Source: Gammaproteobacteria bacterium (GTDB lineage: Bacteria; Pseudomonadota; Gammaproteobacteria; CAKMZV01). From it: a DNA stretch of 64,000 nt. Of this stretch, positions 5,986 through 49,244 are shown in pieces. Where the stretch lies: positions 1,209,641 through 1,273,640 of the forward strand of contig OZ255843.1 in assembly GCA_965277775.1 (NCBI GenBank), in the 5' to 3' direction. Each line of letters opens with the position of its first letter. Position 1 is the stretch's first letter. The position numbers were made by a program, and so were the translations under genes. A model generated the notes under the pieces. It was not told the DNA's origin and ran no database searches. It saw only the letters and a program-made list of their open reading frames with translations.

Positions 5986-8301
5986 TTAAAAACCAGATCC
6001 TATACCAAATTGAAATTGCTGAACAGAATCTGATGATTTGTGGTTAAAAGGCTCGGCATAATTTAATGTGATCTGACCAATCGGGGTCAGCCAAAGGAAC
6101 CCAATACCATAGGATCCTCTCAATGCAGAAAAGTCAATGTTCTTGGGATCAACAAATACATTGCCTACGTCAACAAAAGGCCCATACCTGATATCAACAT
6201 CATCATTATCATCGCCAAAAGGCGGGAATAATGTCTGAAAACGACTCTCCCATACAAAAGCCCCGCCACGGGCGCCAGATGCACCATCTGCTGTATTATA
6301 CTGCTCTCCTAAGGTATTCGCGAGATATCCTCTCACCGAAGTCACGCCACCTGTATAAAATCTATCAAAAAAGGGCGCTTGATCGCCTGAATAAGTTTGA
6401 ATAATTCCAAGGCGTTGTTTAAACAGAACGGCTGTGTTGGCGGCCAAGGGAAAATACCAACTGCTCAAGCTGGTTATTTGAAAGGTATCTATGTCTGTAT
6501 TTGGTATACCCAAAATCGCGTAAACCCGATGCGTTGTCCCTTTGGTAGGAAAAAGTCCGCGATTACGAGTATCGTAATTCCAACCAAAGGTAAAGGCAAA
6601 TTTAATTGCGCCTTCTGGAAATCGACGGGTAAAGCTCTCACATTCAATAAACCCAGTGCCGCAAACAGCCTTTGTTCGTTCAACAAGCGCACCGTAGTTA
6701 AAACGTTGTTGAGCGTTGAATGGGACACCAAATGAGACATTGCCGCCAAGACGATTGCTTAAATAACTGGCTTGGTTTAATTGGTGGGCGTCAGTTTCAG
6801 AAAAATTCAGTCCCCATGTCAAACTGATATTTTCTGGCGTGTAATAAGGGTCCGTGATGCTTATATCCGCTTGAGTAACGGCGCTGTCTTTATTGGCATT
6901 GAAGTTGACGTTATATCCTCTGCCTAACCAATTAGATTCAGTCAGACTAATGCCCAAGCTCGCTCCACCAGAAAGCGTAAAACCAACTCGGGCATTAAAA
7001 CTGCCCGTAGAAACGTCTTTTACTTTGACGGTGAGGATGACTTGATTATCGCTGATTTTTCTCGGTGTGACCGAAACGCTTGAAAAGAAAGACGTTCGGT
7101 TAAGGCGGGCTTCTGAATTGCGAACCAATCGAGGAACGTATAAAGCACCTTCGTATTGAGTCATTTCACGACGCACAACGGAATCGATGGAAGCATTATT
7201 CCCTATGATTTCAATGCGTTTGACATAAACTTTCTTTTTAGGATTGGCAACAATGGTTACCGAAGCCAATTTTGTTTGGGTGTCTAATTTGATATTGGGC
7301 CGAACATCAGCAAATGCATAGCCTTTATCGCCTAAGGCGGTTTTAAGATTTTCAATCGAGTTCAATATTTTACGGCGAGAAAAAACTTGTCCAGCCTCAA
7401 CTTGATTGAGTCCATCGACGCGTTTTTTGCTAAGCACTTTTTCGTAACCTGTGTAAGCAACGCCACTAAAATGAAACAGCAAGCCTTCTTCTATATTCAA
7501 AGTGATGTAAACAGCCGATTTCTCAGGAGACAGTTGGACTTGAGAAGACAGGATTTGAAATTGGGCAAACCCACGGTCAAAATAGTAATTTCTTAAGGCC
7601 TCAAAAGAGCCTTCTAAGGGAAGTTTCTGGTACTCATGATCGCCAAAAAGAGACGTTTCAGAATAAGGTGATAAAGTAAATTGTCTTAACAGCTGTTTGT
7701 CGGAAAAAGTTTTATTGCCAATGACATCTATGCGTTCAATTTTTGCCGCATCCCCTTCATTAATTTCGATCAGTAGTTTGACCCTCTGGCGTGTTAAGGA
7801 TTCAATTCGACTGTCAATCTTAACGGCATAGTAACCAGCATTGAAATATTCTGTTTTTAAGCCTCTGCGAATGCGATTGAACAAGGTTTGATTAAAGGCG
7901 CGATTGACCGCGATGCCTTGGGCTTTTAAATTTTTGGTCAAAAGCTCTGTCTCAATGAGATTGTTGCCTTTGAACTCAATTTCTACAATGGTTGGGCGTT
8001 CTTTAACTTTAATGGTTAAAGTCTGCTCATCTACCAGTAATTGAATGTTGTCAAAAAAACCACTGTCGTACAGAGATTGGATGATGTCTTTATAGTTTTC
8101 GTCATTCAATTGCTGGCCCAAAATCTCAGGCAAGTAGGATTTAACAATGGCCGCATCGTGTCGGATGAGCCCTTCAAATTTAAGCGCTTGAATGGGTTGA
8201 GCCAAGGCAGTTGTCGGCTTCCAGCACAGAATCATCCCGACCATAAAGCAGGCTTGAATGAAGCCATTCAAACGATTTTTGGGCTTAAATTTGATCAACA
8301 T
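5986..8301 (-). CDS. bamA: outer membrane protein assembly factor BamA
   Basis: 771 aa, POTRA-repeat region followed by Omp85 beta-barrel ending in aromatic-rich C-terminus (...FQFGIGSGF); synteny rseP-bamA-skp. Confidence 0.92.
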   Translation of the reverse strand: MLIKFKPKNRLNGFIQACFMVGMILCWKPTTALAQPIQALKFEGLIRHDAAIVKSYLPEILGQQLNDENYKDIIQSLYDSGFFDNIQLLVDEQTLTIKVKERPTIVEIEFKGNNLIETELLTKNLKAQGIAVNRAFNQTLFNRIRRGLKTEYFNAGYYAVKIDSRIESLTRQRVKLLIEINEGDAAKIERIDVIGNKTFSDKQLLRQFTLSPYSETSLFGDHEYQKLPLEGSFEALRNYYFDRGFAQFQILSSQVQLSPEKSAVYITLNIEEGLLFHFSGVAYTGYEKVLSKKRVDGLNQVEAGQVFSRRKILNSIENLKTALGDKGYAFADVRPNIKLDTQTKLASVTIVANPKKKVYVKRIEIIGNNASIDSVVRREMTQYEGALYVPRLVRNSEARLNRTSFFSSVSVTPRKISDNQVILTVKVKDVSTGSFNARVGFTLSGGASLGISLTESNWLGRGYNVNFNANKDSAVTQADISITDPYYTPENISLTWGLNFSETDAHQLNQASYLSNRLGGNVSFGVPFNAQQRFNYGALVERTKAVCGTGFIECESFTRRFPEGAIKFAFTFGWNYDTRNRGLFPTKGTTHRVYAILGIPNTDIDTFQITSLSSWYFPLAANTAVLFKQRLGIIQTYSGDQAPFFDRFYTGGVTSVRGYLANTLGEQYNTADGASGARGGAFVWESRFQTLFPPFGDDNDDVDIRYGPFVDVGNVFVDPKNIDFSALRGSYGIGFLWLTPIGQITLNYAEPFNHKSSDSVQQFQFGIGSGF

Positions 8302-8441
8302 GGTTACAAACGTTAAACACGGCGAAAAGACCCTTTCTTTGAGGCACCATTTATAAAAAATTGGAAAGATTAACGAAACGGGTCATTATCGCTTAAATGT
8401 GGCATTAAAATGGGACGTATCAATGAGAATTTGAGTCGTGT

Positions 8442-9836
8442 TTAGTTTATTAGGCGAATAATGTCGTTTGAAAATGCCAATATCATAATCATACCAAGAA
8501 TGACGACGCCAATGTACTGAAGTTTTAATTGTAATTTATCCGAAATCGCCAAGCCCCGAACATATTCAATGGCATAAAACAGGATGTGCCCACCATCGAG
8601 TAGCGGAATGGGCAAAAGATTGAGTACACCGAGACTGACGCTTAAAAAAGCCAGAAAATTTAAAAAACTTAACAAGCCGTTGTTGGCAGATTTGCCCGCA
8701 TATTCGGCGATGGTGATGGGACCGCTGATGTTTTCGTAGGAAAGTTGTCCAGTCAACATTTTGCCAATCGACACCACGATGAGTATGGATAAGTCGTACG
8801 TTTGCTTGAATCCCTCAACAATGGCCTGGAAAAGGTTTTGTTGATAAACCCTTAAATAGGGCTTAAAGTCATCTTCACTGATTTTGGGGGTGGCCCCGAG
8901 AAACCCAACCATTTTCCCATCATCAATTTTAGAACCTAAGGTTACGGGGATTGTAAGCGCGACTTCTGATCGATGGATGTGGAAGTCCAACGTCTGATTC
9001 GGCGCGTTTCGTACAATATCGACAACCTCGTGCCAATAGTAAATAGCTTGTCCGTCTATTGAGGTAATCACGTCGTTGGATAGCAGTCCCGAGTTAATGG
9101 CCGCCTGCCCTTGTAACAGCTCATCTAAAACCGGTTTTATGGGGCTAAACGGCGTGATGCCGAGATCTTGCCAAGACAAATCAGGGGCTTTTGGCAGCTG
9201 ATCCCACTGAATGTCTAAGACGGTTTTTTCGGCTTGACCCGCCCTAAGATAAGAAATGGAAAAGTCTGATTGGCGAATTGATTCGGCGTTTAATCGAGCA
9301 TAGGCATCGTTCCAACCCGGTGTTTTAACGCCGTTGATGGCGAGGATCTCATCGTTGGGCTGGAGCGCAGATTGGGCAACGGCATTCACTGAGGCCGTTT
9401 TTCCAATGATGGGGGGCAGTACTTCACGGTCGAAGGTGCCAATAAAAGCAAACAAGGCCGCCGCTAAGGCCAAGTTGATCAAAGGTCCAGCAATCACAAC
9501 GGCAATTCGCTCTAAGGGCGGTCTTTGGTCAAAAGCTCTGTGAAGCTCATCATCGGCAACGGCCCCTTCACGGGTGTCTAACATCCGAACATAGCCGCCC
9601 AAGGGTATGGGGGCAAAGCAAAACTCCATGTCATCGGGCCCCATTTTTTTTAACCAAAGGGGTTTGCCAAATCCAATTGAAAATCGGAGCACCTTGATGT
9701 TGAAATAGCGAGCAACAGCAAAGTGCGCCCACTCATGAACGGTGACTAAGACTAAAATCGCGATTAAAAATGCAAAAAATGATTCAAACACAGTTATACC
9801 ATTGAACTTGAAGCCAAAAAATGGGTGCTGCAGCAA
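8442..9836 (-). CDS. rseP: RIP zinc metalloprotease RseP (ORF-track maximum; probable true start GTG at 9791)
   Basis: HEWAHF (HExxH) zinc motif in TM1, PDZ region, C-terminal LDGGH motif; maximal ORF overlaps cdsA by 53 nt, in-frame GTG at 9791 gives E. coli-like N-terminal length. Confidence 0.88.
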   Translation of the reverse strand: MLQHPFFGFKFNGITVFESFFAFLIAILVLVTVHEWAHFAVARYFNIKVLRFSIGFGKPLWLKKMGPDDMEFCFAPIPLGGYVRMLDTREGAVADDELHRAFDQRPPLERIAVVIAGPLINLALAAALFAFIGTFDREVLPPIIGKTASVNAVAQSALQPNDEILAINGVKTPGWNDAYARLNAESIRQSDFSISYLRAGQAEKTVLDIQWDQLPKAPDLSWQDLGITPFSPIKPVLDELLQGQAAINSGLLSNDVITSIDGQAIYYWHEVVDIVRNAPNQTLDFHIHRSEVALTIPVTLGSKIDDGKMVGFLGATPKISEDDFKPYLRVYQQNLFQAIVEGFKQTYDLSILIVVSIGKMLTGQLSYENISGPITIAEYAGKSANNGLLSFLNFLAFLSVSLGVLNLLPIPLLDGGHILFYAIEYVRGLAISDKLQLKLQYIGVVILGMIMILAFSNDIIRLIN

Positions 9837-36873: not shown

Positions 36874-39480
36874 TTATTTTGAAATGTGCGCTTCCAACCA
36901 TTGCGGAATGGACTGTAGTGCCGCATCAATCTTCTCAGGTTTTGAGCCGCCCGCCATAGCCATATTTGGACGTCCGCCGCCCTTGCCCCCAACTTGTTGA
37001 GCAACATGGTTGACGAGATCGCCCGCCTTAACTTGATTGGTCAAGTCATCGGTCACACCACAAACGATTGAAACCTTTGCATCCGCCACACTGGCTAAAA
37101 CGATGATGGCAGAATGCAATTTTTGCTTCAGCTCGTCAATCATGCCCCGTAAATCTTTATTTGACTGGTCGTCGATGCGCTCAATCAACACAGGCAAGCC
37201 GGCAATTTGTTGAACTTGTTGGCTAAAATCTTGGCTTTTTAGGGCATTTAACTGCTGGTTTAATTCGGCAATTTTGTTTTCTGCAAGTTTTAATTTATCC
37301 GCTTGCGATAAAACTCTTTGACCGATTTGTTCCAATGAACTATTAAAAGATTGGGCCAAGTCATACAAGGTGCCGATGTGCTGGTTGACCCATTGTTGAG
37401 CCGGTTTTCCACACAGAGCCTCTAATCGTCTAACGCCTGAGGAAATACCCGATTCTGAGACAATTTTAAAGAAACCAATCTGACCCGTTGAGGAGACGTG
37501 GGTGCCACCACAAAGTTCAGTGGAGCAGTCTTCCATTTTAACCACGCGAACAATGTCGGCATATTTTTCGCCAAATAGCGCCATGGCGCCTAATTTTTTG
37601 GCTTCATCAATGGGCATGGTGTTGGTGGTCACGGCAAGATTGCTCAAAATGTAGTCATTAACTTGCGTTTCAACACGGCGCTGCTCTTGGACTGAAACAG
37701 GCATGGCATGTGAGAAATCAAAGCGTAAGCGGTCGGGTTCAACCAAAGAGCCTTTTTGGGCTACGTGCGTGCCCAATACATCTCTTAATGCCGCGTGTAA
37801 TAGATGCGTTGCGCTGTGGTGGCATTCAGCATGGCCTCGTGTTTCTGTATCGATCGCTGCCTCAACGGCTTCACCCGTGGTGAATGATCCTTTGCTCATT
37901 GTGCCAATACAGACGCTGGCTTCGCCCATTTTTTGCGTGTCAGTCACGTTGAATTGCCCTGTCGTGGTTGATAAAACACCCCGATCACCGACTTGTCCGC
38001 CCGCCTCGGCGTAAAAAGGCGTTTGCTCTAATACGATCCAGCCTTGCTGCCCTTCAGTGAGGCTGTCGCAGGCTTCATTGTCTAGATAAAGTGCTAGAAT
38101 TTTTGTCTGTTGGATGCTTGTTTCGTAGCCCACAAATTGATTTTTTTCTGTCACAGCTGTGGTGGCAGATTGATCAAAAAATTTGTTGCTTTGCCGCGCT
38201 TGCGCTTGTTGGACTTTCATCCGATCTTCAAAGCCTGCTTCATCAATGGTCAGATCGTGTTCGCGGGCAACATCGGCGACTAAATCCACTGGAAAACCAA
38301 ATGTGTCGTATAGACGAAAAACCGTTTCACCAGAAATAACCGAACCCTTGAGCTGTTTGATTTCATCTTCTAAGATGCGCATGCCATTGTCTAAGGATTC
38401 ACGGAATCGAATCTCCTCTTGTTTCAAGGTGTTTTCTAATAGGGCTTGTTGTACCACCAACTGGGGGTATGCTTCGCCCATGGTGGCAGCCAAAGCAGGC
38501 ATCATTTTGTAGAAAAACGGCGTGCTCTGCCCCAGCTTGTGCCCATGACGAACGGCGCGACGAATGATGCGGCGTAAAACATAACCGCGACCCTCATTCG
38601 AAGGCAGGATGCCATCCACAATAAGGAAAGCACAAGAGCGAATGTGGTCGGCGATGACTCTTAATGAGGGACTGTCGGGATCAGCCATTGGAATGCACTG
38701 ATGTGCCGCTTGGGTCAAATCCTTAAACAGGTCAATGTCGAAATTGTTGTGGACGTTTTGAATAACCGCGCTTACCCGCTCCAAGCCCATGCCTGTGTCA
38801 ACCGAAGGTCGGGGTAAGGGGTCTAAGGTGCCATCGGCTTGGCGATTAAACTGCATAAAAACCAAGTTCCAAATCTCAATGTATCGATCGCCATCTTCTT
38901 CGGGAGAGCCAGGCGGGCCTCCTTCAACCTCAGGGCCATGATCGTAAAAGATTTCTGAACACGGCCCACATGGACCAGTGTTACCCATAGACCAAAAGTT
39001 GTCTTTTTCGCCACAGCGAGAAAATTTAAGGGGGTCAATGCCAATGATATTTTTCCAAATGGCTTCAGCTTCTGCATCATCCTCATAGACGGTGATCCAA
39101 AGTTTTTCCTTGGGGAGCTTGAGCACTTCGGTTAAAAATTCCCAGGCGTAAATGATGGCTTGTTCTTTGAAATAATCGCCAAAACTGAAATTGCCAAGCA
39201 TTTCAAAAAATGTATGGTGTCGAGCCGTGTAGCCGACATTATCTAAATCATTGTGTTTGCCGCCTGCACGAACGCAACGTTGGGCAGTGGTTGCTCTATT
39301 GTACGGGCGTTGTTCAACCCCCAGAAATACGTCTTTAAAGGGCACCATGCCGGCATTTGTAAACAGCAAAGTCTTGTCACCCGCTGGTACCAAAGACCCA
39401 CTTTCTACAATGGTGTGACCGCGTTGCTCGAAAAAAGATAAGAAGGCGCGACGAATATCAGCCGTGGTTTTGGTTGTCAT
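36874..39480 (-). CDS. alaS: alanine--tRNA ligase
   Basis: 868 aa; class II aaRS catalytic core (FTNAGMVPFK; GGKHNDLDNVG), editing domain HxxxH...CGGTHV, C-terminal DHHA1. Confidence 0.96.
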   Translation of the reverse strand: MTTKTTADIRRAFLSFFEQRGHTIVESGSLVPAGDKTLLFTNAGMVPFKDVFLGVEQRPYNRATTAQRCVRAGGKHNDLDNVGYTARHHTFFEMLGNFSFGDYFKEQAIIYAWEFLTEVLKLPKEKLWITVYEDDAEAEAIWKNIIGIDPLKFSRCGEKDNFWSMGNTGPCGPCSEIFYDHGPEVEGGPPGSPEEDGDRYIEIWNLVFMQFNRQADGTLDPLPRPSVDTGMGLERVSAVIQNVHNNFDIDLFKDLTQAAHQCIPMADPDSPSLRVIADHIRSCAFLIVDGILPSNEGRGYVLRRIIRRAVRHGHKLGQSTPFFYKMMPALAATMGEAYPQLVVQQALLENTLKQEEIRFRESLDNGMRILEDEIKQLKGSVISGETVFRLYDTFGFPVDLVADVAREHDLTIDEAGFEDRMKVQQAQARQSNKFFDQSATTAVTEKNQFVGYETSIQQTKILALYLDNEACDSLTEGQQGWIVLEQTPFYAEAGGQVGDRGVLSTTTGQFNVTDTQKMGEASVCIGTMSKGSFTTGEAVEAAIDTETRGHAECHHSATHLLHAALRDVLGTHVAQKGSLVEPDRLRFDFSHAMPVSVQEQRRVETQVNDYILSNLAVTTNTMPIDEAKKLGAMALFGEKYADIVRVVKMEDCSTELCGGTHVSSTGQIGFFKIVSESGISSGVRRLEALCGKPAQQWVNQHIGTLYDLAQSFNSSLEQIGQRVLSQADKLKLAENKIAELNQQLNALKSQDFSQQVQQIAGLPVLIERIDDQSNKDLRGMIDELKQKLHSAIIVLASVADAKVSIVCGVTDDLTNQVKAGDLVNHVAQQVGGKGGGRPNMAMAGGSKPEKIDAALQSIPQWLEAHISK

Positions 39481-40114: not shown

Positions 40115-40257
40115 AGGCTGAATATTATAACGAGTTTGGGTGTTTCAACTTTGACAAAAACCGCAGAAATCGTTATGAATACATCTTGATTAAAAGAGAG
40201 TCTAATTGTTAGTACGATGATCGTGCAATTGAATCAGAACGGTCACAGTTATGGAAT

Positions 40258-41544
40258 CTAAATATTAACTTTTAGAGTGCTTTCGTTGTAGGATTCGGCT
40301 TGTTCTTTGATGGTGTTTTTTATCTCTTCTAATTCTCCTTCAACCCATTCGTAGTCACCGTTAAAATTTTTGTGAATGTGCTTTTCAATTGCTTTAAAGT
40401 GGGGTGTTTGCAGTTGATATTCTAATTCGTAGGCACGGTATGGGTCAGATGTTTGGTAACTGTTTAAGCGCCGCTTGACGTCCTTGGCTATACCGACCTT
40501 GTACATTCCTTCCCAGCTGCTATTGGCAATGACATAGACGAATCCCTGTCCAAATGCATCAATGCCATCCTCTGTGAGCTTTGGAACCTGAGTGCTGAAG
40601 TGCGGCTCTGGTCTGAACATATCCGCAGGAACTTCGTTGTCCAAGCGATTTTTAACGAGTTCATATGCTTTATGCGATATGTCAATGCCTACCCATTGTC
40701 GATCTAATTTTTCGGCAGCAATACAAGTGGTGGCACAGCCACAAAAAGGGTCGAGTACCACATCACCTGCGTTGCTGCTGGCTTGGATGATACGCTCTAA
40801 TAAGGCCAGTGGTTTTTGGGTAGGGTAGCCTGTACTCTCTCGGGAATTACCTTTTAATGGAGGAATATAAATCCAACTTTCTGGAAATTTGCCATTATCG
40901 TTGAGCTCAACAACACCTTCTGCAACTTTAGAAGCTTTAGCAGAATATCCCTGTCTGTTAAGGCTTGAGCTGGCGTATGGTTGACGAATGCTCTCTGGGT
41001 TAAATGTCCATGTGTTACCTTTTGAATACCAAAAAATAATGTCATGCACCCGTGATAACTGTTTTTGATTCGGGGCAGATGGTCTGCTATAACACCACAC
41101 CACTTCATTTCTAAAATTTTTCTCACCGAAAATGCAGTCCAGAACAATTTTCAGGTAATGGCTCATGGTTGGATCGCAGTGCAGATATAAGCTACCCGTA
41201 TCCTTTAACAATCGGTGGCATTCAATCAAACGTATAGCCATGTAAACCAAATAGCAATAATTGTACTTATTGCTAAAGGATTTGACGCCTTTTAAGTAAT
41301 CGTGCAGCTCTGGAGACTCAAAACGGATGCTGTCCACCCATTCGTCTTTTACATCCTCTTCTCTGAAAATATCTGAAAATTCAGCCCCTTCTGCACTAGT
41401 GCCAATAGGTGCGGAAAAGATTTTCTTTGTATTAAAAGGGGGATCAAGATAAATCAGATCAACGCAAGCACTATTGATACCCTGCAAAATTTCCAGATTA
41501 TCATGACAAAAGATGGTGCGCGGTTCTACATTGAGGTTGTTCAT
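40258..41544 (-). CDS. beta-class N6-adenine/N4-cytosine DNA methyltransferase fused to C-terminal T5orf172 (GIY-YIG-like) domain
   Basis: Motif IV DPPF (LIYLDPPFNT) near N-terminus, motif I later (VVLDPFCGCATTCIAAEKL): circular permutation of beta-class amino-MTases. C-terminal ~100 aa GFVYVIANSSWEGMYKVGIAKDVKRRLNSYQT...EWVEGELEE matches T5orf172/Mug113 GIY-YIG-like module. Confidence 0.85.
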   Translation of the reverse strand: MNNLNVEPRTIFCHDNLEILQGINSACVDLIYLDPPFNTKKIFSAPIGTSAEGAEFSDIFREEDVKDEWVDSIRFESPELHDYLKGVKSFSNKYNYCYLVYMAIRLIECHRLLKDTGSLYLHCDPTMSHYLKIVLDCIFGEKNFRNEVVWCYSRPSAPNQKQLSRVHDIIFWYSKGNTWTFNPESIRQPYASSSLNRQGYSAKASKVAEGVVELNDNGKFPESWIYIPPLKGNSRESTGYPTQKPLALLERIIQASSNAGDVVLDPFCGCATTCIAAEKLDRQWVGIDISHKAYELVKNRLDNEVPADMFRPEPHFSTQVPKLTEDGIDAFGQGFVYVIANSSWEGMYKVGIAKDVKRRLNSYQTSDPYRAYELEYQLQTPHFKAIEKHIHKNFNGDYEWVEGELEEIKNTIKEQAESYNESTLKVNI

Positions 41545-41807
41545 AGGCTTTTTTCCTATTTAGGGTCTTGCCAAATTGACTGATTTGAGACACACGAAGC
41601 AAGTGATACATTGTACCGAAGATAGGGGTATTTTGGATTTATTTCTGAAGATTGTGGGCCATGGATTAATAAGAACACACTAATACAATTTGGAATTCTG
41701 GCGAATGCAGGCACAACACTGATTAGGGCTATTTCTTAACAAAGTCGCAGTTTGAATCGCTCAGCTTGTATAATTTTATTAACACAAATCATTAACGGAG
41801 CACAGTT

Positions 41808-44749: not shown

Positions 44750-44803
44750 GCAGTCATTTCCTCCGTCAATGCAGTGACTTTGCCATCAGTATAGTAGAAG
44801 GGA

Positions 44804-45007
44804 TTAGGCACCATTTGAAGGTTTCTTGTCATTATTGTCAAATCCAGGAAAATGCGATTTTAAATTATCAATGAGAGTTTCGTGATTACTTAGAATATTT
44901 GCAGGATTAGATTCTACGGTTTTCAGCATGATTGTCATAAGTTGTTCTTTTTGGCTTTCTGTGCCAAAATCATCAATGGCTCTCACAAAACCCTCATACA
45001 TGACCAT
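44804..45007 (-). CDS. small hypothetical protein (67 aa), AT-rich
   Basis: ORF only; co-directional with flanking denV and coiled-coil/TM genes; no recognisable motif. Confidence 0.3.
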   Translation of the reverse strand: MVMYEGFVRAIDDFGTESQKEQLMTIMLKTVESNPANILSNHETLIDNLKSHFPGFDNNDKKPSNGA

Positions 45008-45031
45008 GACTCTTTGTTTATGATTGTATGT

Positions 45032-45787
45032 TTAGCGTAGCTGGCTTTTTTGTGAAATGGACCTCTGTATGTACCATATTAACCAAATTAAAGGCGATCC
45101 AGTGAGCAGATTAAAAAATACAGATTTTACAGATACCCCCTCTTCCATATAGAAAGGATATGCAAACCAAAAAAACAACCCGATTGCAATTCCAATGAAA
45201 GCGAACCACAGCAAAGGAATGTATTCAATCTCATCCTGAGCGGCCTTATAACTGGATGCCAAGCCAGCCGATGTTGCCTCTGGCAATAAACCGTTGATTC
45301 TATTAAAAAGCTCTTCACGATTCTCTTCTATATGCTTAAATGTTTTTTCTTGAGTATCCTTTAATGTTGTAAATTGTTGCTCAAATCGGTTTGAGTTGAG
45401 TTCATTTTCATTGACAATATGTTTGGACTGCGCATCGATTTGAGTGGTTAGTGTATTCACAAATTCTTCAATTTTTTGTTTTTTGCTAGTCGTTTCCCCA
45501 TCGCTCCTTCCACTCTCTTGAAAAAGTTCATCATATAAATCAGTGATTGCAAGCTGATGTGCCTTAATAGTGTCTTTTGTAGAATTGATTCCTTTTTCGC
45601 TGTCTTCAATGCTTTTTTTCAAAACATCAATTTCATTAGACCACGATGTAGAGTTGTCATAACAAGACTTAATAGTTTCAGATTTTTTTTGAATATCATC
45701 AATAAGTTGTTTAGAATCTTTAAGTGTTTGATGAGTCTGTTTTATATATTCAACGAGCTCATTTTTTTTCATTTTTTTATAATCCAT
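45032..45787 (-). CDS. hypothetical coiled-coil protein with two C-terminal transmembrane helices, AT-rich
   Basis: 251 aa; ~190 aa Lys/Glu/Gln-rich helical region then LLWFAFIGIAIGLFFWFAYPFY and LLTGSPLIWLIWYIQ hydrophobic segments; markedly lower GC than neighbours. Confidence 0.5.
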   Translation of the reverse strand: MDYKKMKKNELVEYIKQTHQTLKDSKQLIDDIQKKSETIKSCYDNSTSWSNEIDVLKKSIEDSEKGINSTKDTIKAHQLAITDLYDELFQESGRSDGETTSKKQKIEEFVNTLTTQIDAQSKHIVNENELNSNRFEQQFTTLKDTQEKTFKHIEENREELFNRINGLLPEATSAGLASSYKAAQDEIEYIPLLWFAFIGIAIGLFFWFAYPFYMEEGVSVKSVFFNLLTGSPLIWLIWYIQRSISQKSQLR

Positions 45788-45965
45788 TTGGCTCTCCTTA
45801 TCTTTGGTGAATAAATCTTACACTAAGCTGTATTTTTACATATATTGCTGTTTCGTAAACTCTACAGTTGTTCAATTTTACTGTATGTATTGGTATTATT
45901 TTATGGGTTTGATTAGTGAGTGACTATGTTGAGATGCCTTTGGCATACCAGTGTGTAGGACGCAC

Positions 45966-47037: not shown

Positions 47038-47538
47038 CTAATTGATGTGAAGGGTTTTTTGACCACGCTGTATGCCTAAGATGCCAGAGCGGACGGTTTC
47101 TAAAATGATGGAGGTGTCAAGCGCCTGAATAAAAGCGTCTAATTTATCTGAAGTGCCTGCTAATTGAATGGTATAGACTTGATCGGACACATCAATGATG
47201 GCGCCCCTGAATATATCAGACAAGCGTTTGAGTTCTTCTTGCACTTTACTCGAGCTCGCTTTGACTTTGATGAGCATCAGCTCGCGTTCGATGTGGCGAC
47301 TTTGGATCAAATCAATGACTTTCACCACATCAACGAGTTTGTTCAGTTGTTTAACAATCTGTTCGACGGTGGCATCATTGCCCTCTGTCATCAGCGTGAG
47401 GCGCGATAGGGTTGGGTCTTCGGTGCGGGCGACGCAAAGTGATTCAATGTTGTAGCCGCGGGCAGAAAACAGTCCAACAAGACGGGATAATGCGCCTGGT
47501 TCGTTTTCTATGAGTACTGAAATTATGTGTGCTGACAT
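47038..47538 (-). CDS. ilvH: acetolactate synthase small (regulatory) subunit
   Basis: 166 aa; ACT domain HIISVLIENEPGALSRLVGLFSARGYNIESL. Confidence 0.9.
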   Translation of the reverse strand: MSAHIISVLIENEPGALSRLVGLFSARGYNIESLCVARTEDPTLSRLTLMTEGNDATVEQIVKQLNKLVDVVKVIDLIQSRHIERELMLIKVKASSSKVQEELKRLSDIFRGAIIDVSDQVYTIQLAGTSDKLDAFIQALDTSIILETVRSGILGIQRGQKTLHIN

Positions 47539-47546
47539 GAGATTTC

Positions 47547-49244
47547 TTATCCTTCTGACAATATCATTTCATCTTGCCCAGCGCCCGAAGGAATCATGGG
47601 AAAGACATTTTCTTCGCGGTCAGTGATGACGTCAATGAAGACCAAGCGATCTTTAATGGCAAAGGCTTGCTCTAATTCAGCTCTAAGCGTTTTAGGGTCT
47701 TTTATGCGCACCCCAACGTGACCGTAAGACTCAACAAGCTTGGTAAAATCGGGCAAAGATTGCATATAGGACATGGCATAGCGACGCTCGTAGAAGAACT
47801 CCTGCCATTGCCTGACCATGCCAAGGTAGCCGTTGTTCAAGCACAATATTTTAACGGGTAAAGCATATTGTGAGCAGGTGGACAGTTCTTGTAGCATCAT
47901 TTGGATGCTGCCTTCACCGGTGACGCACACCACTTCTGCATCAGGATGGGCTTTTTTCACACCCATGGCCGCAGGAAAACCAAAACCCATAGTGCCCAAG
48001 CCACCCGAATTGATCCAACGTAGCGGTTTGGTAAAGTGATAGTACTGAGCCGCCCACATTTGGTGCTGCCCGACATCGGAGGTTATGTAGGCATCCCCTT
48101 TGGTGATTTCATACAAGTGCTCGATCACCGCTTGGGGTTTGATCCTTTCGTCACATGTTTTGTAGGCCAAAGATTTGCGACTACGCCACTCATTGATTTG
48201 ATCCCACCATTCACTGACACGGGCATTGGGTTTGCGCGTATCTTTGGCTAACATGTCTAACATTTGTTCGAGAACTTGTTTGACGTCACCGACAATGGGG
48301 ACATCGACGTCGACATTTTTGGCAATACTTGAGGGGTCAATGTCAATATGAATGATTTTTGCATGGGGGCAGAATCTTTCCAAATTACCTGTGACGCGAT
48401 CGTCAAAGCGCGCGCCGATGGCAACGAGCACATCGCAGTTGTGCATGGCCAAATTGGCTTCGTAGGTGCCGTGCATGCCTAACATGCCGAGAAATAAAGG
48501 ATCGGTCGCAGGATAGGCGCCTAAGCCCATGAGCGTATTGGTAATGGGGAAGTCAAATCGCTTAACCAATGCCGTCAATTGCTCAGAAGCATGACCCAAA
48601 ATGACTCCGCCACCCGTATAAAAAATGGGTTTTTTGGCCGTCATCATGTAGTCGATGGCTTTTTTGATTTGCCCAAGATGCCCTTTGCCAACGGGTTGAT
48701 AAGTTCGTATATCGACGGTGTCGGGATAAGAAAATTCAATTGATTGTGCTGTAACGTCTTTGGGTATGTCAATTACAACGGGACCTTTACGACCAGAGCA
48801 GGCAATGAAAAACGCTTTTTTAATCGTTACTGCCAAATCAGCAACGTCTCTGACCAGAAAATTGTGTTTAACCACAGAGCGACTGACGCCAATCATATCG
48901 ACTTCTTGGAAGGCATCGTTGCCAATAAGGTCAACAGGCACTTGTCCAGAAATCACCACCATTGGAATAGAATCGGTGTAAGCGGTTGCTATGCCGGTTA
49001 TGGCATTTGTGGCACCAGGACCTGAGGTGACCAGAACGGTTCCAGGTTTACCCGTTGAGCGTGCGTAACCATCCGCCGCATGGGTGGCTGCTTGCTCGTG
49101 CCGCACGAGAATGTGTTCAATGTCTGTTTGATTGTAGAGTGCATCGTAGATGTGTAAGACGGCACCACCAGGGTACCCCCAAATACATTCCACGCCTTCT
49201 TGCTTTAGCGATTCGACTACAATCTGAGCGCCCGTTAATTTCAC
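47547..49244 (-). CDS. ilvI: acetolactate synthase large subunit (GTG start)
   Basis: 565 aa ThDP enzyme; GYPGGAVLHIYDAL N-terminus; GG..LG motif; GGAG RBS 6 nt upstream of GTG. Confidence 0.93.
   Translation of the reverse strand: MKLTGAQIVVESLKQEGVECIWGYPGGAVLHIYDALYNQTDIEHILVRHEQAATHAADGYARSTGKPGTVLVTSGPGATNAITGIATAYTDSIPMVVISGQVPVDLIGNDAFQEVDMIGVSRSVVKHNFLVRDVADLAVTIKKAFFIACSGRKGPVVIDIPKDVTAQSIEFSYPDTVDIRTYQPVGKGHLGQIKKAIDYMMTAKKPIFYTGGGVILGHASEQLTALVKRFDFPITNTLMGLGAYPATDPLFLGMLGMHGTYEANLAMHNCDVLVAIGARFDDRVTGNLERFCPHAKIIHIDIDPSSIAKNVDVDVPIVGDVKQVLEQMLDMLAKDTRKPNARVSEWWDQINEWRSRKSLAYKTCDERIKPQAVIEHLYEITKGDAYITSDVGQHQMWAAQYYHFTKPLRWINSGGLGTMGFGFPAAMGVKKAHPDAEVVCVTGEGSIQMMLQELSTCSQYALPVKILCLNNGYLGMVRQWQEFFYERRYAMSYMQSLPDFTKLVESYGHVGVRIKDPKTLRAELEQAFAIKDRLVFIDVITDREENVFPMIPSGAGQDEMILSEG

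What the first reader, a model, noticed from the sequence alone, without database searches (positions are those of the whole stretch)
40258..41544. Solitary beta-class DNA methyltransferase fused to a T5orf172 (GIY-YIG-like) domain, in a lower-GC block with no restriction partner
The 428-aa protein has motif IV (LIYLDPPFNT) ahead of motif I (VVLDPFCGCATT), the beta-class permutation used by N6A/N4C methyltransferases. It is fused to a ~100-aa C-terminal module with the hallmarks of the T5orf172/Mug113 GIY-YIG-like family (VYVI...YKVGIA...RRLNSYQT...EWVEGELEE). No endonuclease, specificity subunit or helicase is encoded next to it; the neighbours are a secreted DUF2141 protein and a divergent SRPBCC gene. 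The gene looks AT-richer than the housekeeping genes around it, so it is probably horizontally acquired. A methyltransferase carrying its own GIY-YIG-like module could be a single-chain modification-dependent or modification-coupled nuclease, an orphan epigenetic methylase with a DNA-recognition or nicking accessory domain, or part of an uncharacterised defence element. Each option is inference; the sequence only shows the domain fusion and the missing partner.
Basis: partly seen in the sequence, partly recalled or inferred. Interest (0 to 1): 0.68.

Follow-up and report, generated by a model that had tools for sequence, protein, structure and literature searches.

The report
Mobile single-gene methylase–nuclease fusion enzyme
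This gene encodes a DNA methylase fused to a small, apparently active nuclease; it is a strain-specific 1.5-kb insertion and belongs to a large, uncharacterised family of mobile one-gene methylase–nuclease enzymes that most likely work as self-contained restriction–modification systems.

Summary
ORF 40258-41544 (-) encodes 428 aa: a beta-class N6_N4 DNA methyltransferase (aa 28-298) fused to a T5orf172 domain (aa 334-414). The predicted fold of that domain matches GIY-YIG nucleases, and its candidate catalytic residues are kept in 110-120 of 120 homologs. There is no restriction partner nearby.

The low-GC argument is weak (z = -1.5). Horizontal acquisition is shown another way. A sister genome with 96-97% nucleotide identity has an empty site, and the window carries a 1,525-bp insert (40172-41696) holding only this gene.

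Family context:
- Among the 109 nearest MTase cluster representatives scanned, the same C-terminal position carries HNH (54), T5orf172 (20) or Mrr-type (5) nucleases.
- Tandem paralogs in other genomes are 83-100% identical everywhere except the target-recognition region, where they are 12-35% identical.
- Copies sit alone between housekeeping genes, often next to an IS1595 transposase.
- At least seven loci come from sponge-symbiont MAGs, and the family spans several phyla.

Best reading: a self-contained, Type IIC-like single-chain restriction–modification enzyme with an uncharacterised architecture (confidence about 0.5). Rivals are a methylase-guarded homing-type selfish gene, an IS1595 addiction module, and an orphan methylase with a non-catalytic accessory domain. 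No activity was tested.

The parts
40172..41696 (-). Strain-specific 1,525-bp cassette. It holds the ORF plus 152 bp upstream and 86 bp downstream, and replaces 59 bp in the sister genome.
   Evidence: blastn of L129 against the window gives 96-97% identity. The alignment is interrupted only here and at 44763-45951. Junctions were read by eye. Insert GC is 0.408 against flanks of 0.464 and 0.478.
40258..41544 (-). ORF, 428 aa: MTase-T5orf172 fusion protein.
   Evidence: AlphaFold2 model with mean pLDDT 84.8 and pTM 0.81
40651..41463 (-). Beta-class N6_N4 DNA methyltransferase domain (aa 28-298).
   Evidence: Pfam E=2.1e-48. Foldseek top hits are CcrM, M.BceJIV, M.MboIIA and M.RsrI. phmmer against PDB sequences finds the same enzymes.
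41434..41445 (-). Motif IV DPPF (catalytic).
   Evidence: Invariant in 120/120 homologs.
40831..41094 (-). Variable middle region with the presumed target-recognition domain (aa 151-238; the most variable part is about aa 190-235).
   Evidence: Lowest conservation and the largest indels in the family alignment. DNA similarity to other loci breaks here. Tandem paralogs are 12-35% identical here (one pair 64%) against 83-100% elsewhere.
40726..40761 (-). Motif I VVLDPFCGCATT (AdoMet binding).
   Evidence: D265, F267 and G269 are invariant in 120/120 homologs.
40549..40629 (-). Inter-domain linker (aa 306-332). The family consensus here is PPKRTD.
40303..40545 (-). T5orf172 (GIY-YIG superfamily) nuclease domain, aa 334-414. 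Candidate catalytic residues are Y337, Y348, R359, Y363 and E399.

Best explanation
The locus is a horizontally acquired single-gene cassette encoding a bifunctional enzyme.

Shown:
- The N-terminal part is a beta-class DNA methyltransferase with its own variable target-recognition region.
- A conserved linker tethers it to a T5orf172 (GIY-YIG-type) nuclease domain that keeps its candidate catalytic residues.
- The family is large, mobile and interchanges its nuclease module.

Inferred:
- It works as a self-contained, Type IIC-like restriction-modification enzyme.
- The MTase/TRD module reads a short DNA sequence and methylates it on the host chromosome. The target base is probably adenine N6, judged from the DPPF motif and the nearest relatives.
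- On unmethylated copies of that sequence in incoming DNA, the tethered nuclease cuts or nicks nearby.
- Because recognition, protection and attack are in one polypeptide, the gene can move alone and needs no partner.
For: 1. Both domains are intact and conserved. DPPF and motif I are invariant in 120/120 homologs. Y337 is kept in 120, Y348 in 110, R359 in 118, Y363 in 118 and E399 in 119 of 120.

3. T5orf172 is an experimentally shown nuclease domain when attached to a sequence-specific DNA-binding module, as in ICP1 Odn/Gp88, whose catalytic Glu is required (PMC8263062 and PMC10448857).

4. Three unrelated nuclease folds occupy the same position on the same MTase scaffold. They are HNH (54), T5orf172 (20) and Mrr_cat (5) among the 109 nearest cluster representatives scanned. 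Individual loci L032, L034, L037, L038 and L047 show the same. This argues that a nuclease function is what selection keeps.

5. Specificity diversifies. The TRD is hypervariable. Tandem paralogs are near-identical except in the TRD. This is typical of restriction systems and not of regulatory methylases.

6. There is no conserved partner gene in 45 genomic loci.

7. The gene is present or absent between genomes that share 96-97% nucleotide identity.

8. A fully conserved MTase implies many genomic target sites that need protection. That points to short, restriction-like recognition sequences (inference).

Against: No activity of any kind was tested.

No biochemically characterised enzyme with this architecture (beta-class MTase at the N-terminus, nuclease at the C-terminus) turned up in my literature searches.

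The GIY-YIG metal-binding Asn has no conserved counterpart here; position 410 is variable.

In the hhalign alignment the second Tyr (Y348) is one residue out of register with I-TevI Y17.

Pfam scores the Mrr-type tails of relatives about equally as 'inactive REase' (NA-iREase1).

The frequent IS1595 linkage and the intergenic single-gene insertions also fit a purely selfish element.
Confidence: 0.5

Rival explanations
1. Methylase-guarded homing-type selfish gene. The nuclease cuts empty alleles or other genomic targets to drive insertion of the cassette, as free-standing GIY-YIG, HNH and T5orf172 homing endonuclease genes do. The methylase protects the carrier chromosome. Any defence benefit is incidental.
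For: The window carries a single-gene insert with no transposase, inverted repeat or target-site duplication.

In L039, copies are inserted between ilvI and ilvH, two genes that are adjacent in the window.

T5orf172 genes are reported as putative homing endonuclease genes at boundaries of genetic exchange in ICP1 phages (PMC10448857).

The three nuclease folds seen in this family are all also used by homing endonucleases (established knowledge).
Against: Homing endonucleases recognise long, unique sites that the insertion disrupts, so they need no methylase. Here the MTase catalytic motifs are invariant in 120/120 homologs.

Tandem arrays with swapped TRDs but 99-100% identical nuclease domains look like local duplication plus specificity diversification, not repeated homing.

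The window insert replaces 59 bp of unrelated sequence, so no clean homing junction is seen.
Confidence: 0.2
2. Passenger or addiction module of IS1595-family transposons. The MTase-nuclease stabilises or spreads with the transposon through post-segregational killing. The window copy is a stranded remnant that lost its transposase.
For: An IS1595 transposase (PF12762 + PF12760) lies next to the MTase in roughly 12-15 of about 47 loci. It is often directly upstream on the same strand, with an ATGA overlap or a gap of 4-6 nt.

Inverted repeats bracket transposase plus MTase in L040, L016 and L002.

The transposases form one family that is about as diverged (45-87%) as the MTases (53-70%).
Against: Most loci, including the window, have no transposase nearby.

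No inverted repeats or target-site duplication flank the window insert.

This reading explains spread rather than biochemical function, and it is compatible with the best explanation.
Confidence: 0.12
3. Orphan (solitary) epigenetic DNA methyltransferase. Its T5orf172 domain is a non-catalytic DNA-binding or positioning module, analogous to the C-terminal DNA-binding domain of CcrM.
For: The closest solved relatives of the MTase domain include the orphan MTase CcrM, which has a C-terminal accessory domain.

The conserved Asn of GIY-YIG enzymes is not identifiable.

To my knowledge T5orf172 was first described as a DNA-binding-type domain.
Against: The candidate catalytic Tyr, Arg, Tyr and Glu are kept in 110-120 of 120 homologs.

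The same position carries HNH or Mrr nucleases in sister proteins.

Hypervariable specificity, tandem multi-copy arrays and strain-level presence/absence are atypical for regulatory methylases.
Confidence: 0.12
4. Ordinary two-gene Type II restriction-modification system whose endonuclease gene was missed.
For: None found.
Against: The strain-specific insert is only 1,525 bp and holds one ORF.

All flanking genes have housekeeping-type Pfam assignments and are present in the sister genome without the MTase.

No conserved neighbour was found across 45 loci.
Confidence: 0.01

Closest known systems
Type IIC/IIG single-chain restriction-modification enzymes (MmeI, BcgI, TstI, Thermus TspGWI/TaqII family)
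   Same: Methyltransferase, target recognition and nuclease sit in one polypeptide. The gene can stand alone. Specificity changes by TRD variation.
   Different: From established knowledge, those enzymes have an N-terminal PD-(D/E)XK nuclease followed by a gamma-class MTase and a C-terminal TRD. Here a beta-class MTase with an internal TRD comes first, and a small GIY-YIG/T5orf172 nuclease is at the C-terminus. Sister proteins carry HNH or Mrr there instead.
GIY-YIG restriction endonucleases (Eco29kI, Cfr42I, Hpy188I) and the Eco29kI R-M gene fusion (PMC3039593)
   Same: A GIY-YIG nuclease is used for restriction. The Eco29kI R-M fusion is reported as a fully functional single polypeptide carrying both activities.
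T5orf172 nucleases of vibriophage ICP1: Odn/Gp88 and T5orf172 homing endonuclease genes (PMC8263062, PMC10448857)
   Same: The same Pfam nuclease domain acts as a generic cleavage module tethered to a sequence-specific DNA-recognition domain, in a modular 'beads on a string' design. They occur as free-standing intergenic genes.
   Different: In those proteins the targeting module is a RepA_N-like or other DNA-binding domain, not a methyltransferase. They are phage-encoded. None of the 80 viral-contig homologs kept here carries a T5orf172 tail.
Beta-class orphan and Type II/III MTases (CcrM, M.BceJIV, M.MboIIA, M.RsrI, EcoP15I Mod)
   Same: The MTase fold and motif order match (Foldseek E 1e-17 to 1e-18; phmmer against PDB sequences 2e-18).
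   Different: None of these carries a nuclease domain. Identity is only about 20-24%.
PADLOC candidate system PDC-S57
   Same: The T5orf172 domain alone hits PDC-S57 models (E=1.8e-11 and 2.6e-9).
   Different: Only about 63 residues of profiles 212-221 long match. PDC-S57 is itself uncharacterised and is not an MTase fusion as far as the profile shows.

Membership tests
Beta-class N6/N4 DNA methyltransferase (Pfam N6_N4_Mtase) | Profile match above the curated threshold | tested here: met
   165.6 bits against a cutoff of 26.7, aa 28-298
Beta-class N6/N4 DNA methyltransferase (Pfam N6_N4_Mtase) | Circular permutation with motif IV (D/S-P-P-Y/F) before motif I (FxGxG-like), and the TRD between them | tested here: met
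   DPPF at aa 34-37, VVLDPFCGCATT at aa 262-273, variable region at aa 151-238
Beta-class N6/N4 DNA methyltransferase (Pfam N6_N4_Mtase) | MTase fold like solved beta-class enzymes | tested here: met
   Foldseek: CcrM 1.9e-18, M.BceJIV 1.7e-17 with TM(target) 0.83, M.MboIIA, M.RsrI
Beta-class N6/N4 DNA methyltransferase (Pfam N6_N4_Mtase) | Target base (N6-adenine or N4-cytosine) and recognition sequence | not testable with these tools
   The DPPF motif and the best matches to adenine MTases (NCBIfam PRK11524 and CcrM) suggest m6A. This is inference only.
T5orf172 / GIY-YIG nuclease superfamily | Profile match above the curated threshold | tested here: met
   T5orf172 45.2 bits against 20; MUG113 32.3 against 22.3
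T5orf172 / GIY-YIG nuclease superfamily | GIY-YIG alpha/beta fold | tested here: met
T5orf172 / GIY-YIG nuclease superfamily | Catalytic Tyr (GIY), Arg and Glu present | tested here: met
   Y337 in 120/120, R359 in 118/120, E399 in 119/120. The assignment of E399 as the catalytic Glu is by position in the fold and is an inference.
T5orf172 / GIY-YIG nuclease superfamily | Second Tyr (YIG) and metal-binding Asn | tested here: inconclusive
   Y348 is kept in 110/120 but is one residue out of register with I-TevI Y17. No conserved Asn was found in the last helix.
T5orf172 / GIY-YIG nuclease superfamily | Nuclease activity | not testable with these tools
   Shown only for another T5orf172 protein, ICP1 Odn (PMC8263062).
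Classical two-gene Type II R-M system | Cognate endonuclease gene adjacent to the MTase | tested here: not met
   The 1,525-bp insert holds one ORF. All neighbours are housekeeping-type and present in the empty-site genome.
Type IIC (single-polypeptide R-M) | MTase and nuclease domains in one polypeptide | tested here: met
Type IIC (single-polypeptide R-M) | Sequence-specific cleavage that is blocked by the enzyme's own methylation | not testable with these tools
   Needs biochemistry or in vivo restriction assays.
Free-standing homing endonuclease gene | Single-gene intergenic insertion that is polymorphic between close relatives | tested here: met
   Empty site in L129. In L039 the insertion lies between ilvI and ilvH.
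Free-standing homing endonuclease gene | Cleavage of the empty allele and conversion of it | not testable with these tools
The conserved MTase argues against this reading but does not exclude it.
IS1595-family transposon passenger | Adjacent IS1595 transposase and flanking inverted repeats | tested here: not met
   The window has no IS1595 homolog and no flanking inverted repeats or target-site duplication. The feature is met in relatives L002, L016, L040 and L047.

The most novel reading that the evidence does not exclude
The family is an autonomous one-gene 'methylase-guarded nuclease' mobile element. A single polypeptide marks its host genome and also attacks unmarked DNA, including empty alleles. 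That would make it both a minimal innate-immunity gene and a self-propagating selfish gene. Its nuclease modules (HNH, T5orf172, Mrr) and TRD cassettes would be exchangeable, and it would spread across bacterial phyla within sponge microbiomes, partly by hitch-hiking on IS1595 transposases.
Probability: 0.2. Interest if true: 0.8.

Novelty: new variant of a known kind. Interest (0 to 1): 0.6.

Why it matters
If the protein both methylates and cuts, it is a minimal restriction-modification system: about 1.3 kb, one gene, with a programmable recognition cassette and a plug-in nuclease. This architecture (beta-class MTase followed by a C-terminal GIY-YIG, HNH or Mrr nuclease) has not, as far as I could find, been characterised.

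The tandem arrays with swapped TRDs offer a natural library of specificities on a constant scaffold. That is useful for enzyme discovery and for studying how TRDs encode sequence recognition.

The family could also account for part of the known enrichment of restriction-modification genes and transposases in sponge symbionts. It would give a concrete, testable vehicle for cross-phylum gene flow in that habitat.

The filled and empty strain pair found here is a ready-made natural experiment for methylome comparison.

Tried and rejected
- GC and GC3 deviation as evidence of foreign origin: only z = -1.5 and -1.4, so not used.
- Flanking direct or inverted repeats around the window gene: only chance-level short matches.
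- Promoter and terminator scan: no more sites than in shuffled sequence.
- Exact look-up of the window protein's contig: not on record.
- Cluster-member names for ten homologs: none carried a name.
- Metagenome scan with the DUF2141 neighbour to find an empty site: only one relative, at 38% identity. The empty site was found through AlaRS instead.
- Profile search of the T5orf172 domain against PDB sequences: no meaningful hit, so the link to solved GIY-YIG enzymes rests on fold and the Pfam clan.
- Curated plasmid and phage collections: thousands of MTase-domain matches, but none covers 80% or more of the query. The full fusion is therefore absent from both.
- Literature searches for a described beta-MTase plus C-terminal nuclease family, or for a sponge-specific report of it: only general statements on R-M and transposase enrichment in sponge symbionts.
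- A first automatic global alignment of the empty and filled sites misaligned. The junctions were read manually and agree with the BLAST ends.

Full report
**1. Observation**

The ORF is real and sits exactly where stated: 40258..41544 on the minus strand, ATG start, 428 aa. Pfam assigns N6_N4_Mtase to aa 28-298 (E=2.1e-48). It assigns T5orf172 to aa 334-414 (E=1.4e-11, 45.2 bits against a cutoff of 20) and also hits MUG113.

Motif IV (DPPF, aa 34-37) precedes motif I (VVLDPFCGCATT, aa 262-273), which is the beta-class order. NCBIfam places the protein nearest to adenine-specific MTases (PRK11524, CcrM), but far below their equivalog cutoffs. PADLOC sees only generic Type II and Type III MTase models.

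The neighbours are alaS, a DUF2141 gene, an AHSA1/SRPBCC gene, a gamma-glutamyltranspeptidase and a Pyr_excise glycosylase. No nuclease, specificity subunit or helicase is nearby.

The claimed AT-richness is marginal. Gene GC is 0.418 against 0.460 +/- 0.028 for 60 window ORFs (z = -1.5), and several ordinary genes are as low.

**2. Structure and active sites**

An AlphaFold2 model built on 56 homologs is confident (mean pLDDT 84.8, pTM 0.81). Its MTase part matches CcrM, M.BceJIV, M.MboIIA and M.RsrI. A sequence search against PDB chains finds the same enzymes.

There is no sequence-level hit to solved structures.

Across 120 full-length homologs, conservation is as follows:

| Residue or motif | Kept in |
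|---|---|
| DPPF, and motif I D/F/G | 120/120 |
| Y337 | 120/120 |
| Y348 | 110/120 |
| R359 | 118/120 |
| Y363 | 118/120 |
| E399 | 119/120 |

Y348 is one residue out of register with Y17. No conserved Asn could be identified. Both domains therefore look catalytically competent, with those two caveats.

T5orf172 has been shown to be a nuclease when tethered to a DNA-binding module. The case is ICP1 Odn/Gp88, which depends on its catalytic Glu. The domain also marks putative homing endonuclease genes in ICP1 phages (PMC8263062 and PMC10448857).

**3. The gene is a strain-specific single-gene insertion**

The AlaRS next door has one homolog at 98% identity, on a 2.08-Mb contig. That locus, L129, has AHSA1 and DUF2141 adjacent with no MTase between them.

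blastn shows 96-97% nucleotide identity over 22.6 kb, interrupted only twice:
- Window 40172-41696 (1,525 bp) contains the MTase ORF plus 152 bp upstream and 86 bp downstream. It replaces 59 unrelated bp in the sister genome. I found no target-site duplication or terminal repeats.
- Window 44763-45951 (1,189 bp) replaces 93 bp.

The window holds only this one copy and no IS1595 transposase.

**4. The family**

The 120 best database hits, at 54-72% identity, all carry the same two domains. Several large contigs hold multiple paralogs.

A scan of one genome per species gave 45 loci. They fall in Gamma- and Alphaproteobacteria, Arenicellales, Bacteroidota (Ekhidna, Flammeovirgaceae), Poribacteria, 'Ca. 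Poriferihabitans' and Chloroflexota.

At least seven loci come from sponge-symbiont MAGs. The CAR bins are confirmed as Robbins et al. sponge MAGs. I take the IRC4 and STY2 bins to belong to the same set by their naming. Poribacteria and Poriferihabitans are candidate taxa associated with sponges. The source of the many OZ24... MAGs I could not verify. The sponge enrichment is therefore an observation that still needs a proper census.

No neighbour is conserved apart from a transposase. The genes directly downstream are unrelated housekeeping genes: MarC, ClpP, HPPK and CobW.

In L039, MTase copies sit between ilvI and ilvH, which are adjacent in the window. One of those copies is itself interrupted by an rve-type transposase.

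**5. Interchangeable nuclease modules**

I searched the MTase part alone (aa 1-310) against 1.84 billion cluster representatives. This gave 3,189 hits below 1e-30.

I scanned 109 of the 150 best, those 330-620 aa long. Of these, 54 carry HNH, 20 T5orf172 and 5 Mrr_cat at the C-terminus. Individual loci show the same pattern: L032 has HNH, and L034, L037 and L038 have Mrr_cat. L047 has an IS1595 transposase followed by a frame-shifted MTase-HNH, plus two MTase-T5orf172 genes.

The 80 viral-contig homologs kept (36-49% identity) lack T5orf172. Seven of the eight I tested carry Mrr_cat tails.

Three unrelated nuclease folds at one position on one scaffold is the strongest argument that the tail is selected as a nuclease. 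The full MTase-T5orf172 fusion is absent from 72,556 plasmids and 50,697 phage genomes.

**6. Specificity diversification**

The middle region, about aa 190-235, is the least conserved part of the family and holds the largest indels. DNA similarity between loci breaks there.

Tandem arrays occur in several genomes: four genes in L004, five in L011, and two in L003, L012, L013, L014 and L017. Array members compare as follows:

| Region | Identity between array members |
|---|---|
| MTase core | 83-100% |
| T5orf172 domain | 99-100% |
| aa 151-238 (TRD region) | 12-35% (one L004 pair reaches 64%) |

One L004 copy is an exception outside the TRD: its nuclease module is only 32% identical to the other three.

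This constant-scaffold, variable-TRD pattern resembles the specificity shuffling known in Type I and Type III systems (established knowledge).

**7. Mobility**

An IS1595-family transposase lies next to the MTase in roughly 12-15 of about 47 loci. In four phylogenetically distant genomes it sits directly upstream on the same strand. The junction is an ATGA stop/start overlap (L002, L040) or a 4-6 nt gap (L016, L019).

Inverted repeats bracket transposase plus MTase in L040, L016 and L002. The transposases are one family, diverged about as much as the MTases. This suggests a long-lived transposase-MTase unit. The window copy has none of these features.

**8. Interpretation**

Shown:
- the domain fusion
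- intact motifs in both domains
- the GIY-YIG fold
- solitary status
- strain-specific insertion
- nuclease-module swapping across the family
- TRD hypervariability
- frequent IS1595 linkage

Inferred: that the protein methylates a short motif on host DNA and that the tethered nuclease attacks unmethylated copies, which would make it a Type IIC-like one-gene restriction-modification enzyme.

I prefer this to a pure homing element because an invariant MTase implies many genomic sites that need protection, whereas homing endonucleases need none. I prefer it to an orphan regulatory methylase because of the conserved nuclease residues, the swapped nuclease folds, the diversifying specificity and the presence/absence polymorphism. 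The selfish and defence readings are not mutually exclusive.

Nothing here tests activity, so my confidence in the mechanism is about 0.5.

**9. Novelty**

NCBI already names some homologs 'GIY-YIG nuclease family protein' or 'DNA methyltransferase'. T5orf172 has been listed among nuclease domains of adenine-methylating R-M systems (PMC4738411). The fusion is therefore visible in databases.

I found no characterised enzyme with this layout and no description of the family-level features. I could not consult REBASE.

I rate it a new variant of a known kind, single-chain R-M, of moderate to good interest.

Noticed in passing
window 44763-45951: This is a second strain-specific insertion (1,189 bp, GC 0.345, the strongest compositional outlier in the window at z = -4.2). 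It is absent from the sister genome, which has 93 bp there. It encodes a 251-aa coiled-coil protein with a hydrophobic C-terminus (45032-45787) and a 67-aa ORF (44804-45007). There are only weak coiled-coil-type hits to ZorA, PbeC and JetC models.
   Followed up: partly
L004 3271-9269; L011 6003-11230; also L003, L012, L013, L014, L017: Tandem arrays of two to five MTase-T5orf172 paralogs. Members are 83-100% identical outside the TRD but mostly 12-35% identical in aa 151-238. This indicates cassette-like specificity diversification with homogenised constant regions.
   Followed up: yes
L004 8001-9269 compared with the three upstream copies: Within one array, one copy shares 83-90% identity in the N-terminal MTase part, but its T5orf172 domain is only 32% identical to the others. 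This suggests the nuclease module was exchanged inside an array.
   Followed up: no
L002, L016, L019, L040 (about 7040-9480); L047 7938-10203: An IS1595-family transposase lies directly upstream of the MTase-nuclease gene, with an ATGA overlap or a 4-6 nt gap, in distant taxa. Inverted repeats bracket both genes in L040, L016 and L002. In L047 the passenger is a frame-shifted MTase-HNH.
   Followed up: partly
L039 4650-10581, compared with window 47038-49244: MTase copies are inserted between the acetolactate synthase large and small subunit genes and after the small one. These two genes are 8 nt apart in the window. One of the inserted copies is itself split by an rve-type (IS3-like) transposase.
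   Followed up: partly
L048-L127 (IMG/VR contigs): Viral-contig relatives of the MTase domain (36-49% identity) have C-terminal tails of about 180 aa. Seven of eight tested are Mrr_cat / NA-iREase1-type PD-(D/E)xK domains, and none is T5orf172.
   Followed up: partly
window 41368-41433 (aa 38-59 of the protein): The loop right after motif IV is among the most conserved stretches of the family (0.87 mean column identity) but is modelled with pLDDT below 50. It may be a DNA-contacting or base-flipping loop that orders only on substrate.
   Followed up: no
window 36874-39480 (alaS): Apart from one sister genome at 98%, the nearest AlaRS homologs are only 57-60% identical (Sulfurivirga, Methylococcus and Thiohalobacter among the named ones). 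The window therefore comes from a deeply branching, unnamed gammaproteobacterial lineage with a genome of about 2.06 Mb.
   Followed up: no
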